Positions 1 through 4,597 of a DNA stretch of 23,190 nt are shown in pieces. Numbering within the stretch: position 1 is the first letter of the stretch; each line of letters opens with the position of its first letter. The stretch is from Escherichia coli. Lineage in GTDB: Bacteria; Pseudomonadota; Gammaproteobacteria; Enterobacterales; Enterobacteriaceae. The stretch lies in NCBI RefSeq assembly GCF_003334815.1, contig NZ_QOWO01000050.1; one strand, 5' to 3'. The notes under the pieces are model-generated. The model did not search any database. It was not told the DNA's origin and worked only from the letters and a program-made list of their open reading frames with translations. Position numbers and translations under genes: made by a program.

Positions 1-1
1 G

Positions 2-898
2 TGGCTTGCGCAGTGCGGGCTGACGGTGGAGCAACTGGCCAGACAGGTGGAGCCGGAATACACACCGGCGCGAAAAGCTCATCTTTATCACTGCGACCAC
101 CGGGGACTGCCGCTGGCGCTTATCAGCGAAGACGGCAATACGGCGTGGAGCGCGGAATATGATGAATGGGGCAACCAGCTTAATGAGGAGAACCCGCATC
201 ATGTGTATCAGCCGTACCGTCTGCCAGGGCAGCAGCATGATGAGGAATCAGGGCTGTACTATAACCGTCACCGGTACTACGATCCGTTGCAGGGGCGGTA
301 TATTACTCAGGACCCGATGGGGTTGAAAGGGGGATGGAATTTATATCAGTATCCTTTAAATCCACTACAACAAATTGACCCTATGGGATTATTGCAGACT
401 TGGGATGATGCCAGATCTGGAGCATGTACGGGGGGAGTTTGTGGTGTTCTTTCACGTATAATAGGACCAAGTAAATTTGATAGTACTGCAGATGCTGCGT
501 TAGATGCTTTGAAAGAAACGCAGAATAGATCTCTATGTAATGATATGGAATACTCTGGTATTGTCTGTAAAGATACTAATGGAAAATATTTTGCATCTAA
601 GGCAGAAACTGATAATTTAAGAAAGGAGTCATATCCTCTGAAAAGAAAATGTCCCACAGGTACAGATAGAGTTGCTGCTTATCATACTCACGGTGCAGAT
701 AGTCATGGCGATTATGTTGATGAATTTTTTTCAAGTAGCGATAAAAATCTTGTAAGAAGTAAAGATAATAATCTTGAAGCATTTTATCTCGCAACACCTG
801 ATGGACGATTTGAGGCGCTTAATAATAAAGGAGAATATATTTTTATCAGAAATAGTGTCCCGGGATTGAGTTCAGTATGCATACCGTATCATGATTAA
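2..898 (+). CDS. rhsD: Rhs-family polymorphic toxin, C-terminal ~299 codons (5'-partial; gene begins upstream of window). Conserved Rhs core end followed by a variable AT-rich C-terminal toxin domain
   Basis: Frame is open from position 2 with no stop before the track ORF at 26. Translation contains the Rhs core-terminal signature YDxxGR...[13 protein letters not shown] (PxxxxDPxGL) at about 300-390. Base composition drops sharply to AT-rich immediately after that motif, as expected for a swapped toxin tip. Gene symbol is from recalled context (rhsD-ybbC-ylbH-ybbD next to mnmH/allS). Confidence 0.85.
113..392 (+). repeat. Rhs core-terminal homology block, copy 1 (direct repeat with 1309-1588)
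   Basis: Nucleotide and protein similarity to 1309-1588 visible by eye, including a 33-nt identical block ccggtactacgatccgttgcaggggcggtatat at 271-303 and 1467-1499. Both copies end at the DPxGL motif. Confidence 0.8.
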
Positions 899-937
899 TT
901 TTAGTGCTTTTATTAGTGGGGCCTATAAGGAGATTCA

Positions 938-1306
938 ATGAAATATAGTTCAATATTTTCGATGCTTTCATTTTTTATACTATTTGCCTGTAATGAGACA
1001 GCTGTTTACGGTTCTGATGAAAACATTATTTTTATGAGGTATGTGGAAAAATTACATTTAGATAAATACTCTGTTAAAAATACGGTAAAAACTGAAACAA
1101 TGGCGATACAATTAGCTGAAATATATGTTAGGTATCGCTATGGCGAACGGATTGCAGAAGAAGAAAAACCATATTTAATTACGGAACTACCAGATAGTTG
1201 GGTTGTTGAGGGAGCAAAGTTACCTTATGAAGTTGCGGGTGGTGTATTTATTATAGAAATTAATAAGAAAAATGGATGTGTTTTGAATTTCCTACATAGT
1301 AAATAA
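938..1306 (+). CDS. ybbC: Small protein directly downstream of the Rhs toxin tip; putative cognate Rhs immunity protein with a hydrophobic N-terminus (possible signal peptide or lipoprotein)
   Basis: 122-aa ORF starting 40 nt after the rhs stop, AT-rich like the toxin tip. N-terminus [18 protein letters not shown] is signal-peptide-like with a Cys after the hydrophobic stretch. Position immediately 3' of an Rhs C-terminal tip is the canonical immunity-gene location. Confidence 0.75.
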
Positions 1307-2016
1307 TGCTGGCGCTGATGGATGCGGATGGAAACATTGCGTGGAGCGGGGAGTATGATGAGTGGGGCAACCAGCTGAATGAAGAGAACCCGCATCACCT
1401 GCACCAGCCGTACCGGCTGCCGGGGCAGCAGTATGATAAGGAGTCGGGGCTGTACTACAACCGGAACCGGTACTACGATCCGTTGCAGGGGCGGTATATC
1501 ACTCAGGACCCGATAGGGCTGGAGGGGGGATGGAGTCTGTATGCGTATCCGCTGAATCCGGTGAATGGTATTGATCCATTAGGGTTAAGTCCCGCAGATG
1601 TAGCGCTAATAAGAAGAAAAGATCAACTAAACCATCAAAGAGCATGGGATATATTATCTGATACTTATGAAGATATGAAGAGATTAAATTTAGGTGGGAC
1701 TGATCAATTTTTCCATTGTATGGCATTTTGTCGAGTGTCTAAATTAAATGACGCTGGTGTTAGCCGATCGGCGAAAGGGCTGGGTTATGAAAAAGAGATT
1801 AGAGATTACGGGTTAAATCTGTTCGGTATGTACGGCAGAAAAGTAAAGCTATCCCATTCTGAAATGATTGAAGATAATAAAAAAGACTTGGCTGTAAATG
1901 ACCATGGGTTGACATGTCCATCAACAACAGATTGCTCAGATAGATGTAGTGATTATATTAATCCAGAGCATAAAAAAACGATAAAGGCTTTACAAGATGC
2001 TGGCTATCTCAAGTAA
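1306..2016 (+). CDS. ylbH: Orphan Rhs C-terminal module: ~95 residues of Rhs core end (through DPLGL) fused to a different, AT-rich C-terminal toxin domain of unknown activity
   Basis: 236-aa ORF whose ATG overlaps the ybbC stop (TAATG). N-terminal third is homologous to the end of the upstream rhs core; the sequence after DPLGL (about 1590) is unrelated to the RhsD tip and AT-rich. No upstream Rhs repeat region is in frame, so it is a displaced tip rather than a full rhs gene. Confidence 0.8.
1309..1588 (+). repeat. Rhs core-terminal homology block, copy 2 (5' part of the orphan tip module)
   Basis: Same as copy 1. Encoded peptide [26 protein letters not shown]...[14 protein letters not shown] parallels [26 protein letters not shown]...[14 protein letters not shown] in the main rhs ORF. 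Confidence 0.8.
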
Positions 2017-2257
2017 TCTATCAAAGATGATAATATTTATTTTTGCTATTATAATCATTGTTGTTTTATGCGTAATTACTTATCTTTATTTATACAAAGA
2101 TGAATCTCTTGTAAGTAAACATTACATAAACTATATGGCAATACCAGAAAATGATGGAGTTTTTACATGGCTCCCAGATTTTTTTCCGCACGTAGCGGTG
2201 GATATATCAATATACACAAATGTAGAAGATGATTATTTTTTTCTTATTTTTCCCTAA
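1997..2257 (+). CDS. ybbD: Small predicted membrane protein downstream of the orphan Rhs tip; candidate immunity protein for the orphan toxin (start uncertain; an internal ATG at 2027 just after the ylbH stop is an alternative)
   Basis: 86-aa ORF, very AT-rich, with a strongly hydrophobic N-terminal segment [22 protein letters not shown]. Sits in the immunity-gene position relative to the orphan tip. Weak ribosome-binding sites for both candidate starts. Confidence 0.5.
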
Positions 2258-3000
2258 CAAATGATGATGGGGGTAGGTTTAAGAAAACATTGACAGTGAG
2301 GGCCAGGGAACAAGTGGCGAAAATCGTATCAAAGAATGATCCAGATACAAAAAAAGTGTGGTGTAAATATGGTAAGATACCAGGGCAAGGGGATGGTGTA
2401 AACCTTTTTTTGTTGGTGAAATTAATGTTACGCATTATTTTATAACAAATATTGGAGCTGGATTGCCTGATGCTTGTGCAGAGTAATTGCTTGAATTAAG
2501 AGTCTATCCCATATCGAAGTCGTCAACTTCGTAGTGAGGAAAAGTAAAATTCCTGACTGAGAAAAGACATGTCGGCTATTGTGTAAAGCCATATAGCTCA
2601 GACGATGAATATCTACTCGTATTCAGTTGTTTATTGAGGGTGAGTTCCGACCCTGAAACAACAAATAAAATGAACAGTCAGAGAGTTTACATAGAATTGC
2701 ACTGGTCTTTTACGATATCTGACATTGTGTAATACATATTCAGCCATGCATTAATTAAAATGTTACGTGTTTAATGTGAGTCCCTATCTGAAAATAAATA
2801 ATCCTTCCGGATTAAAATAAATTCTTGCCGGGAAAGAAAGAGGAAATAAACCATTAGCGGAAAACCAGCGGCACGCCAGGGTGACATGCCCCAGTACGGC
2901 GGCCCGATAGTCCAGGGTTCAGCGGGGGTACTGATAGTCGCGCCGACTGCATCGAGAACTCCATACAACTTTTTACGGAACGTCACCTGATAAAATTTGT

Positions 3001-3372
3001 TCAGTATCGTCTTTTGAGATTCTCAAGGTTATGGAGTAACCAGACAGAACGGACACCACTGTCGGAGATAAAAACCCCCTGTTTACGCAGCTCGTTGCTG
3101 GCCCGGTGCTGACCATGTGTCGGGAAAGCGACGGCGTAATCAACAACAGCCTGTTCAGTTGCCTCATCGGTACGGTTCTTAAGGTTAGGAGCGCGGCGAC
3201 TACGATTAATCTGCGCATCCACACCGCCTTCAGCGACCAGTTCGCGGTAACGATAAAACGTATCACGCGAAACGCCCATGATTTTACAGGCTTTTGATAC
3301 GTAGCTGAGTTCTTCAGCCAGATTGAGCAAACCGGCTTTGTGTTTGATGACGGGATTGGCAGTATGAAGCAT
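3001..3372 (-). pseudogene. ylbG: Truncated IS481-like transposase N-terminal (HTH) fragment; no integrase/DDE domain follows
   Basis: Minus-strand ORF with ATG at 3370-3372 preceded by AAGAGGTAA (the track's GTG at 3408 lies upstream of this). Translation MGVSRDTFYRYRELVAEGG...NRSRRAPNLKNRTDEATEQAVVDYAVAFPTHGQHRASNELRKQGVFISDSGVRSVW resembles the N-terminal HTH region of IS481/IS3-like transposases. The ORF stops after ~123 aa and downstream sequence is AT-rich without a recognisable catalytic domain. Confidence 0.55.
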
Positions 3373-3487
3373 GAGAGTTACCTCTTGTTTTGGATAAGGA
3401 TTCGACACTCATATCAAAACCGGTAACTCTCAACCTTTCAAGGCCATGTGTCAGATCAAGTCGCGACTAATACAAATACGTCCCTCA

Positions 3488-4597
<1,110 letters not shown>

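What the first reader, a model, noticed from the sequence alone, without database searches (positions are those of the whole stretch)
938..1020. Putative immunity protein carries a signal-peptide/lipobox-like N-terminus
ybbC begins [18 protein letters not shown], a hydrophobic stretch ending in Cys that resembles a lipoprotein signal (imperfect lipobox LFAC). Rhs toxins delivered between cells act in the target cytoplasm or periplasm; a secreted or lipid-anchored immunity protein would suggest a periplasm- or envelope-acting toxin.
Basis: inference. Interest (0 to 1): 0.25.

Follow-up and report, generated by a model that had tools for sequence, protein, structure and literature searches.

The report
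Exported lipoprotein-type immunity protein YbbC
The E. coli gene ybbC, which protects against the toxin tip of the neighbouring RhsD protein, does begin with an export signal ending in a lipoprotein-type cysteine, so this toxin most likely attacks the cell envelope and is probably not the RNase that published surveys assume.

Summary
**Observation: confirmed.** Window 938-1306 is E. coli ybbC (122 aa, Pfam Imm-NTF2-2). It starts [18 protein letters not shown] and has a strong Shine-Dalgarno site. The N-terminus has K2, a 12-residue hydrophobic core and L-F-A-C18.
- It passes a PROSITE-type lipobox rule and the G+LPPv3 pattern.
- It fails only the narrow [LVI][ASTVI][GAS]C core, because of Phe at -2.
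- The hydrophobic stretch is too short for a membrane helix.

**Export is a family trait.**
- 93 of 121 family representatives carry an N-terminal signal, and 23 pass the lipobox rule.
- The paralog YhhH and a Salmonella homolog have signal-peptidase-I-type signals.

**The partner toxin** (RhsD tip, DUF4329/Tox-JAB-2) keeps all JAMM metalloprotease residues and models as a JAB/MPN fold.
- Tips with exported partners sit apart from tips whose partners lack signals.
- Only the enterobacterial tips have six conserved cysteines.

**Verdict.** YbbC is exported and probably lipid-anchored. RhsD-CT probably acts in the periplasm as a peptidase. The "RNase" label in the papers I could read is only an inference. 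Nothing here is experimentally shown, and lipidation versus plain cleavage remains open. Interest is moderate.

The parts
2..898 (+). 3' end of rhsD. The gene is cut by the window start. It comprises the RHS core followed by the C-terminal toxin tip.
   Evidence: ORF list. NCBIfam RHS_core and Rhs_assc_core end at residue 122 of the ORF. RefSeq annotation reads 'rhsD: rhs element protein RhsD'.
392..895 (+). RhsD-CT toxin tip, after the DPxGL end of the core. The Pfam DUF4329 / Tox-JAB-2 domain spans 491-850. JAMM residues: E at 548-550, H-T-H at 683-691, S at 731-733, D at 740-742. The tip contains six Cys.
927..932 (+). Shine-Dalgarno sequence AAGGAG, 5 nt upstream of the ybbC ATG.
   Evidence: Read directly from the sequence.
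938..1306 (+). ybbC coding sequence, 122 aa plus stop. It is the cognate immunity gene of RhsD-CT.
   Evidence: ORF. RefSeq names it 'YbbC/YhhH family protein' or 'NTF2 fold immunity protein'. It is at least 99% identical in 1871 E. coli records.
938..988 (+). Predicted signal peptide, residues 1-17: n-region M1-K2, h-region I6-A17.
   Evidence: The AlphaFold model shows a lone helix at residues 4-17 ending at the Cys.
980..991 (+). Lipobox L15-F16-A17-C18. The Cys18 codon is at 989-991. Asn at +2 predicts sorting to the outer membrane under the E. coli '+2 rule' (established knowledge, not tested).
   Evidence: Passes the PROSITE-type rule and G+LPPv3. Cys18 is retained in all 58 YbbC-type metagenomic loci.
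992..1015 (+). Low-confidence linker, residues 19-26 (NETAVYGS). It would act as the tether between the lipid anchor and the folded domain. It contains the alternative signal-peptidase-I site VYG|S26.
   Evidence: pLDDT is about 60 for residues 21-30. The (-3,-1) rule scan is.
1100..1303 (+). Imm-NTF2-2 domain, residues 55-122.
   Evidence: Pfam PF15631, E=6.8e-26. pLDDT 95-98 in the model.
1306..2016 (+). Context: an orphan Rhs core-end plus a second toxin tip (ylbH type). Its ATG overlaps the ybbC stop codon.
   Evidence: Weak Pfam SAA hit. The same gene order occurs in Salmonella.
1997..2257 (+). Context: a truncated ybbD (86 aa) with a true membrane-length hydrophobic segment. It is the presumed partner of the orphan tip.
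   Evidence: NCBIfam NF011297 (86/86) against the 163-aa NF011298 model. KD(19)=3.37.

Best explanation
ybbC encodes an exported immunity protein.

Proposed mechanism, step by step:
- Translation starts at ATG938.
- The first 17 residues act as a Sec-type signal peptide that ends in a lipobox (L-F-A-C18).
- The protein is most likely diacylglyceryl-modified on Cys18 by Lgt and cleaved by signal peptidase II. Because residue +2 is Asn, it would then be sent by the Lol system to the inner face of the outer membrane.
- A short flexible tether (residues 19-26) holds the Imm-NTF2-2 domain in the periplasm.
- There the domain binds and blocks the C-terminal tip of RhsD. That tip is a Tox-JAB-2/DUF4329 domain with an intact JAMM metalloprotease centre (E...HTH...S..D).
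- It follows that RhsD-CT, and the RhsB-CT/YhhH pair, act in the periplasm, probably as a zinc (iso)peptidase on an envelope substrate. A cytoplasmic RNase is then unlikely.

Shown by computation: the ORF and its ribosome-binding site; the pattern matches; family-wide export signals; conserved toxin-immunity adjacency; the JAMM residues and fold.

Inferred: actual export, lipidation, outer-membrane sorting, direct binding, the toxin's compartment and its substrate.
For: Sequence anatomy and ribosome-binding site.

Lipobox evidence.
- The pattern rules are passed, with a low chance rate.
- The hydrophobic core is signal-length, not membrane-helix length.
- The AlphaFold model shows helix 4-17, then a floppy linker, then a confident domain.

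Family evidence.
- Of 121 representatives, 23 pass the lipobox rule, 70 carry another signal and 28 have none.
- The consensus of an HMM built from 112 representatives plus YbbC has a signal plus Cys, aligned to YbbC Cys18.

Conserved pairing of signal-bearing partners with DUF4329 tips.
- E. coli RhsB/YhhH.
- Salmonella.
- An independent clade about 30% identical to the RhsD tip, with a Pfam-positive Imm-NTF2-2.
- Nitrospirae and Nitrospinae-type loci, whose partners have a Cys at the end of the hydrophobic stretch.

Toxin evidence.
- Pfam DUF4329.
- Conserved JAMM residues.
- Six Cys conserved only in the enterobacterial tips. This fits disulfide formation in the periplasm.
- Tips with signal-less partners cluster separately.
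- Some standalone DUF4329 proteins are themselves lipoproteins or secreted.

Literature.
- The other JAB toxin family, Tox-JAB-1, is reported to pair strictly with a lipoprotein immunity protein, Imm65 (PMC3482391).
- In the papers I could read, the nuclease/RNase label rests only on analogy with RadC (PMC3239186; PMC3482391). A 2024 preprint calls the activity and substrate 'still unknown'.
Against: No dedicated predictor (SignalP, LipoP) and no experiment was available.

Against lipidation.
- Phe at -2 lies outside the classical lipobox core.
- The closest paralog, YhhH, has W-A-Q-C or W-A-N, which is not a valid lipobox.
- Two signal-peptidase-I sites exist in YbbC.

Against a periplasmic toxin.
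- Three DUF4329 tips (Burkholderia, Lysinibacillus, Tenacibaculum) have signal-less downstream partners.
- A Salmonella SPI-6 survey lists the partner of its Rhs-DUF4329 as 'no signal / CdiI' (PMC10469887).
- 23% of Imm-NTF2-2 representatives are bare domains without any signal.

Other weaknesses.
- The homology of the Nitrospirae and Nitrospinae-type partners to YbbC is only marginal: 10.3 and 6.3 bits against my own HMM.
- The toxin tree is a crude neighbour-joining tree without support values.
- E. coli K-12 has no type VI secretion system (my knowledge, not tested), so the pair may be a relic in that strain.
Confidence: 0.55

Rival explanations
1. YbbC is exported but not lipidated. The signal is removed by signal peptidase I, at LFA|C18 or VYG|S26, and the protein is a soluble periplasmic immunity protein. 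The toxin still acts in the periplasm.
For: - Both sites obey the (-3,-1) rule.
- Phe at -2 is outside the classical lipobox core, and outside G+LPPv2 as described in PMC13068155.
- YhhH, the Salmonella homolog and the L021 homolog all have signal-peptidase-I-type ends (TWA|Q, GWA|D, CQA|D) and no valid lipobox.
- 70 of 121 family representatives have signals that fail the lipobox rule.
Against: - YbbC passes the PROSITE-type rule and G+LPPv3.
- A Cys placed exactly at the end of the hydrophobic core is rare by chance.
- That Cys aligns with the family consensus Cys.
- Phe at -2 occurs in 4 of 23 lipobox-bearing relatives.
- Cys18 is retained in all 58 YbbC-type loci, although their divergence is minimal.
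Confidence: 0.25
2. YbbC is exported, but RhsD-CT is a nucleic-acid-targeting toxin that acts in the cytoplasm, as published surveys label it. The periplasmic immunity protein would intercept the toxin in transit, or it has another role.
For: - Zhang et al. 2012 and Iyer et al. 2011 argue that toxin JAB domains resemble RadC and may be nucleases.
- Later surveys list DUF4329 as an RNase.
- Some DUF4329 clades have signal-less, presumably cytoplasmic, partners.
Against: - The nuclease idea is an analogy with no assay behind it, and a 2024 preprint says the activity and substrate are unknown.
- A producer cell would be unprotected in its own cytoplasm if the toxin were active there.
- The best structural matches are proven isopeptidases.
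- Signal-bearing partners recur in at least three toxin clades.
- The six clade-specific Cys fit an oxidising compartment.
Confidence: 0.12
3. The N-terminal hydrophobic stretch is an uncleaved signal-anchor, that is, a single inner-membrane helix. The domain would still face the periplasm.
For: - The hydrophobic N-terminus follows a single Lys.
- Neighbouring immunity-type proteins such as YbbD use true membrane segments.
Against: - The core is only 12 residues, and the uncharged run 17.
- KD(19) is 1.57, against 3.37 for YbbD.
- Small residues at -1 and -3 and a Cys at +1 make cleavage likely.
Confidence: 0.05
4. The signal-like stretch is not part of the functional protein. Translation would start at Met33 (MRYVEKLH...), giving a cytoplasmic 90-aa immunity protein, and the lipobox match would be coincidence.
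For: - Several database entries begin at MRYVEKL (P0036, P0038).
- 28 of 121 family representatives are bare domains.
Against: - There is a strong AAGGAG site before ATG938 and none before Met33.
- Those short entries come from short contigs or fragments.
- The full 122-aa ORF is intact in 1859 genomes.
- The paralogs also keep N-terminal signals.
Confidence: 0.03

Closest known systems
YhhH (E. coli), the Imm-NTF2-2 partner of the RhsB DUF4329 tip
   Same: - Same Pfam family, about 50% identical to YbbC.
- Same position directly after a DUF4329 tip that carries the same six Cys.
- It also carries an N-terminal export signal.
   Different: The signal ends in TWA|QC (or GWA|N/D in variants). 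That is a signal-peptidase-I type without a valid lipobox, so YhhH is predicted to be soluble in the periplasm where YbbC would be lipid-anchored.
Tox-JAB-1 / Imm65 pair of Bacteroidetes Rhs toxins (Zhang et al. 2012, PMC3482391)
   Same: A JAB-fold Rhs toxin tip is paired with an immunity protein that has an N-terminal lipobox.
   Different: - Both the toxin clade and the immunity fold are different.
- Zhang et al. called Imm65 the only lipoprotein immunity protein in their collection and did not flag Imm-NTF2-2, which they saw in E. coli only.
Periplasmic type VI effector-immunity pairs: peptidoglycan amidases (Tae/Tai, Tse1/Tsi1), glycoside hydrolases (Tge/Tgi) and lipases (Tle/Tli)
   Same: The logic is the same. 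[quoted passage not shown] This comes from my own knowledge of that literature; the same reasoning is used in PMC10469887.
   Different: - Those toxins are amidase, lysozyme-like or lipase folds, and are mostly not Rhs-encapsulated.
- I found no JAMM-fold effector with a demonstrated periplasmic activity in the papers searched.
JAMM/MPN+ isopeptidases (Rpn11, AMSH, BRCC36, archaeal JAMM1, CBASS Cap3)
   Same: The toxin tip shares their fold and the E...HxH...S..D zinc site.
   Different: - Sequence identity is only 8-20%.
- Those enzymes work in the cytosol on ubiquitin-like tails. [quoted passage not shown]
- The substrate of the toxin is unknown.
RadC-type JAB domains
   Different: RadC is cytoplasmic and associated with DNA. 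Its own nuclease activity is an inference and has not been demonstrated.

Membership tests
Pfam Imm-NTF2-2 (PF15631), the YbbC/YhhH family | A significant match to the family HMM over its full length. | tested here: met
   E=6.8e-26, model positions 1-68 of 68, residues 55-122.
Pfam Imm-NTF2-2 (PF15631), the YbbC/YhhH family | Gene lies directly downstream of a Tox-JAB-2/DUF4329 toxin tip. | tested here: met
   There are 39 nt between the rhsD stop and the ybbC start. The same arrangement occurs for YhhH, Salmonella and L021.
Pfam Imm-NTF2-2 (PF15631), the YbbC/YhhH family | NTF2-like alpha+beta fold. | tested here: inconclusive
   The model has helices followed by a four-stranded sheet at high confidence. 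Foldseek against the PDB gave no significant match, best E=0.15.
Bacterial lipoprotein (Lgt / signal peptidase II substrate) | A positively charged n-region followed by an uncharged hydrophobic core of about 7-22 residues. | tested here: met
   K2; core I6-A17; uncharged run at residues 3-19.
Bacterial lipoprotein (Lgt / signal peptidase II substrate) | Lipobox with an invariant Cys at +1, located within residues 15-35. | tested here: met
   L-F-A-C18 passes the PROSITE-type rule and G+LPPv3.
Bacterial lipoprotein (Lgt / signal peptidase II substrate) | Classical core [LVI][ASTVI][GAS]C. | tested here: not met
   Phe at -2 is outside the set. G+LPPv3 was widened specifically to admit it.
Bacterial lipoprotein (Lgt / signal peptidase II substrate) | Lipid modification and globomycin-sensitive cleavage. 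| not testable with these tools
   Needs palmitate labelling, globomycin treatment and a C18 mutant.
Sec signal peptide cleaved by signal peptidase I | Small neutral residues at -1 and -3, placed after the hydrophobic core. | tested here: met
   LFA|C18 and VYG|S26 both qualify. This rival therefore cannot be excluded from sequence alone.
Tox-JAB-2 / DUF4329 toxin domain (the partner, RhsD-CT) | Pfam DUF4329 match together with the E, H[ST]H, S, D motif. | tested here: met
   E=2.5e-37. The motif residues are invariant or at least 90% conserved across 39 sequences.
Tox-JAB-2 / DUF4329 toxin domain (the partner, RhsD-CT) | JAB/MPN (deaminase-like) fold. | tested here: met
Tox-JAB-2 / DUF4329 toxin domain (the partner, RhsD-CT) | Catalytic activity, whether peptidase or nuclease, and its substrate. 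| not testable with these tools
   No assay was found in the papers searched.
Periplasm-acting effector / exported immunity pair | The immunity protein carries an export signal that is conserved among orthologs and paralogs. | tested here: met
Periplasm-acting effector / exported immunity pair | The toxin is toxic only when it is in the periplasm. | not testable with these tools
   Needs compartment-targeted expression of the toxin.

The most novel reading that the evidence does not exclude
The enterobacterial Rhs tips of the Tox-JAB-2/DUF4329 type (RhsD-CT and RhsB-CT) would be periplasm-acting, disulfide-stabilised zinc (iso)peptidases and not RNases. They would be the first JAMM-fold antibacterial toxins with an envelope target. 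Candidate targets are an isopeptide-type bond in the peptidoglycan stem or cross-link, or the Lpp-peptidoglycan link. More broadly, the DUF4329 family would have split into envelope-acting and cytoplasm-acting clades. The two could be told apart by whether the downstream immunity protein carries a signal peptide.
Probability: 0.4. Interest if true: 0.6.

Novelty: new member of a known kind. Interest (0 to 1): 0.38.

Why it matters
Rhs toxin tips of the DUF4329 type are widespread. The ybbC region is in 1859 of 5426 complete E. coli genomes. The Rhs-DUF4329 effector is reported in more than 150 Salmonella serotypes (PMC10469887). Surveys routinely list these tips as RNases, yet that label traces back to an analogy with RadC.

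An export signal on the cognate immunity protein, conserved across the family, points to the wrong compartment for an RNase and to a peptidase acting on the envelope. If that is right:
- It corrects a propagated annotation.
- It adds a new enzyme fold to the set of periplasmic interbacterial toxins.
- It gives a simple rule, partner signal present or absent, for sorting DUF4329 toxins by target compartment.

The claim can be tested directly in E. coli K-12 with standard tools. On its own, a signal peptide on one small K-12 protein is a modest observation.

Tried and rejected
- **NCBIfam.** No model matches YbbC.
- **PDB sequence searches.** No hit for YbbC or for the toxin tip, even at E<=10.
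- **Foldseek of the YbbC model against the PDB.** Nothing significant. The attached signal helix probably dilutes the match.
- **tblastn of the tip.** No phage hits. Only six plasmid records, five of them enterobacterial.
- **Genome-contig scan.** Only four loci, three of them identical or nearly identical to E. coli sequence and sitting in assemblies labelled as other taxa.
- **Viral-contig scan.** Only two E. coli-type loci.
- **Metagenome-contig scan.** 226 relatives were found, but the 80 retained were all E. coli RhsD or RhsB copies. I could use it only to show that Cys18 is invariant.
- **Literature.** The supplements of the E. coli membrane-proteome paper do not list YbbC or YhhH. Ma et al. 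2017, the usual citation for 'DUF4329 = RNase', is not in the held library. Searches found no paper that calls YbbC a lipoprotein.
- **My own error.** My first regex, labelled 'G+LPPv2', wrongly allowed Phe at -2. One search showed that only v3 allows it, so I re-ran the test as v3.
- **Rejected readings.** A membrane helix (core too short), an internal start at Met33 (no ribosome-binding site), and a chance match.

Full report
**What is in the window.**
The first 2.3 kb are the E. coli rhsD locus.
- The ORF ending at 898 carries the end of the RHS core. NCBIfam RHS_core and Rhs_assc_core end at residue 122.
- After the core comes a 168-residue tip that matches Pfam DUF4329 with E=2.5e-37.
- Thirty-nine bases later, behind an AAGGAG site at 927-932, comes ATG938 of a 122-codon ORF.
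- RefSeq annotates this ORF as ybbC, 'YbbC/YhhH family protein' or 'NTF2 fold immunity protein'.
- Pfam places Imm-NTF2-2 at residues 55-122 with E=6.8e-26.
- The ybbC stop codon overlaps the ATG of an orphan Rhs core-end plus second tip (1306-2016). A truncated ybbD follows at 1997-2257.
- G+C falls from 0.58-0.60 in the core pieces to 0.29-0.35 in the tips and immunity genes. No promoter-like site on the + strand separates rhsD from ybbC.

**Checking the observation.**
The N-terminus reads exactly as reported: [18 protein letters not shown]18-N-E.
- It passes a PROSITE PS51257-style lipoprotein rule (the rule is from my memory).
- It passes the published G+LPPv3 pattern. The authors of that pattern widened it specifically to admit Phe at -2 (PMC13068155; test).
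- It fails only the narrow [LVI][ASTVI][GAS]C core, because of Phe16.
- The match is unlikely by chance. Two of 616 possible starts in the window pass the rule, one being ybbC. Only 0.3-0.5% of shuffles of residues 2-30 pass.
- The hydrophobic core is 12 residues. The best 19-residue Kyte-Doolittle mean is 1.57, against 3.37 for the real membrane segment of the YbbD fragment.
- The AlphaFold model shows a lone helix at residues 4-17 ending at the Cys. A low-confidence linker follows (pLDDT about 60), and then a domain at pLDDT 95-98. This is the layout expected of a tethered lipoprotein.
- Two signal-peptidase-I sites also fit: LFA|C18 and VYG|S26. Export is therefore the robust conclusion, and lipidation is the probable but unproven refinement.

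**Is export a property of the family?**
- A full HMMER search of 1.84 billion representatives found 260 relatives.
- Of the 121 usable ones among the best 150, 23 pass the lipobox rule and 70 have another signal-like hydrophobic N-terminus. Several of those 70 have a Cys at the end of the hydrophobic stretch. The remaining 28, mostly bare domains of about 75 aa, have no signal.
- Phe at -2 occurs in 4 of the 23 lipobox members.
- In an HMM built from 112 representatives plus YbbC, the consensus begins 'mkkllllilll.allllsC', and YbbC Cys18 aligns to that Cys.
- Closest relatives:
  - RefSeq YhhH reads MSAEFMVICKKILFRNCVIVSLFVFTYNTWA|QC.
  - Variants end in GWA|N or GWA|D.
  - These are signal-peptidase-I-type signals without a valid lipobox.
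- ybbC itself is almost invariant. It is at least 99% identical in 1871 records and present in 1859 of 5426 complete E. coli genomes. Cys18 is retained in all 58 YbbC-type metagenomic loci. Within-species variation is therefore uninformative.

**The partner toxin.**
- Zhang et al. 2012 equate DUF4329 with Tox-JAB-2 and pair it with Imm-NTF2-2.
- In 39 diverse DUF4329 sequences, H100, H102, G103 and S116 (tip numbering) are invariant. E55, T101 and D119 are at least 90% conserved.
- The tip models with pLDDT 86.8 and pTM 0.81.
- The nuclease or RNase label is an argument by analogy with RadC. Surveys repeat it. One of them states that the activity and substrate are 'still unknown'. I found no assay.

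**Does an exported partner go with this toxin elsewhere?** Loci where the partner has an export signal:

| Locus | Partner and its N-terminus | Calls |
|---|---|---|
| E. coli RhsD | YbbC, lipobox | this window |
| E. coli RhsB | YhhH, signal-peptidase-I type | 31, 82, 85, 86 |
| Salmonella orphan tip | P0032, signal-peptidase-I type; followed by the same SAA-like orphan tip and YbbD as in this window | 87, 88 |
| Metagenomic clade, about 30% identical to the RhsD tip | Pfam-positive Imm-NTF2-2, MKFAKHIVVVSGLLLSFAASTLCQA\|DE | 95, 97 |
| Nitrospirae-type, Nitrospinae-type and L023 (three loci) | Small partners beginning ...IMFNIGC, ...LLLFTASC, ...LLWFTGC | 45, 54, 98 |

The homology of the partners in the last row to YbbC is only marginal.

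Loci where the partner has no signal:
- Burkholderia stabilis, 111 aa.
- Lysinibacillus, 147 aa.
- A Tenacibaculum plasmid, 224 aa.
- In addition, a Salmonella SPI-6 survey reports 'no signal / CdiI' for its Rhs-DUF4329 partner. I could not check that sequence.

Further observations on the toxin family:
- In a crude neighbour-joining tree, the three tips with signal-less partners fall in one branch. The tips with exported partners lie elsewhere.
- The six Cys of the RhsD tip are conserved in the RhsB and Salmonella tips but absent from every other clade. This fits disulfide bonding in the periplasm.
- Some standalone DUF4329 proteins are themselves lipoproteins (P0223 ...LLAAC, P0234 ...LIPAC) or secreted (P0229). 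P0234 lies between yceG/mltG-gmk and rsmA-pdxA-surA.
- The other JAB toxin family, Tox-JAB-1, is reported to pair strictly with a lipoprotein, Imm65.

**Interpretation.**
- The best-supported model is that YbbC is exported, and probably anchored by lipid on Cys18.
- Asn at +2 would send it to the outer membrane under the E. coli '+2 rule'. That is established knowledge, not tested here.
- In this model it neutralises RhsD-CT in the periplasm. RhsD-CT would then act there as a zinc (iso)peptidase.
- The logic is the one used for type VI amidase, muramidase and lipase effectors. A toxin that was active in the cytoplasm would leave its producer unprotected if the immunity protein were exported.
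- The substrate is unknown. Peptidoglycan isopeptide-type bonds or the Lpp-peptidoglycan link are speculation on my part.
- The conclusion applies to this clade only. The DUF4329 family as a whole appears to have both envelope-facing and cytoplasmic branches.

**Comparison with what is known, and novelty.**
- ybbC, its family and its pairing with Tox-JAB-2 are already described.
- In the papers I could search, no one describes its export signal or lipobox, or the consequence for the toxin's compartment. Zhang et al. named Imm65 as the only lipoprotein immunity protein in their set. The later surveys I read that pair DUF4329/Tox-JAB-2 with NTF2-2 do not mention a signal peptide.
- I therefore class it as a new member of a known kind, namely exported immunity proteins that mark periplasm-acting effectors. 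It also corrects a propagated functional label.

**Limits.**
- No dedicated signal-peptide predictor, no model coordinates and no experiment were available.
- Toxin-side sampling is small: seven loci with exported partners against three without.
- The large scans were swamped by E. coli copies.

Noticed in passing
window 1306-2257: A second toxin-immunity module follows ybbC. An orphan Rhs core-end carries a Cys-rich tip with a weak Pfam serum-amyloid-A hit (i-E=0.0013). After it comes an 86-aa ybbD fragment with a genuine membrane-length hydrophobic segment. Full-length YbbD is 163-171 aa. This may be another envelope-facing pair, and the ybbD copy here looks truncated.
   Followed up: partly
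L019 1440-3859 (Salmonella enterica contig): The order DUF4329 tip, Imm-NTF2-2, SAA-like orphan tip, YbbD is the same in Salmonella as in this E. coli window. There YbbD is full length (171 aa, Pfam YbbD_head). The two modules therefore appear to travel together.
   Followed up: partly
window 392-895; L016 310-792; L019 1440-2342: Six cysteines (tip positions 14, 19, 51, 61, 89, 165) are conserved among the RhsD, RhsB and Salmonella DUF4329 tips. They are absent from all other DUF4329 clades sampled. This suggests clade-specific disulfides. No coordinates were available to test whether they pair.
   Followed up: partly
L014 3001-3576 (P0234); also P0223 and P0229: Standalone DUF4329 proteins that are not toxin tips carry their own lipoprotein or secretory signals. 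One lies in a housekeeping neighbourhood between yceG/mltG-gmk and rsmA-pdxA-surA. This hints at a non-toxin, envelope-located role for the domain.
   Followed up: partly
P0225 / L015 3001-3585: JGI names one DUF4329 protein 'LysM repeat protein'. A LysM domain binds peptidoglycan, so this would fit a cell-wall substrate. The precomputed Pfam domains show only DUF4329, and I did not verify the LysM part.
   Followed up: no
window 938-1306 (ybbC); literature PMC8767339: A TraDIS-Xpress screen reports that transposon insertions in ybbC increase trimethoprim susceptibility in E. coli. ybbC is listed there alongside envelope genes such as ldcA and wbbK. This could mean the immunity function matters in K-12 under stress. 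It remains unexplained.
   Followed up: no
L005 3086-3352 (E. coli STEC639 record); L017 and L018 767-1144: Several E. coli genomes carry YhhH-type genes that are frameshifted or lack the signal-encoding 5' part. PGAP flags them as 'frameshifted', and in STEC639 the ORF starts at MRKYES. The immunity gene is decaying in some lineages.
   Followed up: no
window 1-3000: G+C alternates sharply. It is about 0.58-0.60 in the two Rhs core pieces (1-300 and 1300-1600) and 0.29-0.38 in the tips and immunity genes. This mosaic is typical of Rhs elements whose tips were acquired horizontally.
   Followed up: yes
window 3001-3408 (- strand): A 135-aa ORF looks like the helix-turn-helix N-terminal part of an insertion-sequence transposase. 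It sits between the rhs remnants and the 364-aa ORF at 3488-4582, which looks like mnmH/selU. It is probably an IS fragment marking the edge of the Rhs element.
   Followed up: no
L006-L008 (genome-contig hits): Sequences identical or nearly identical to the E. coli rhsD or rhsB tip regions sit in assemblies labelled Alistipes, Flavobacterium psychrophilum and Lachnospiraceae. This is most likely E. coli contamination of those bins, not real occurrence.
   Followed up: no
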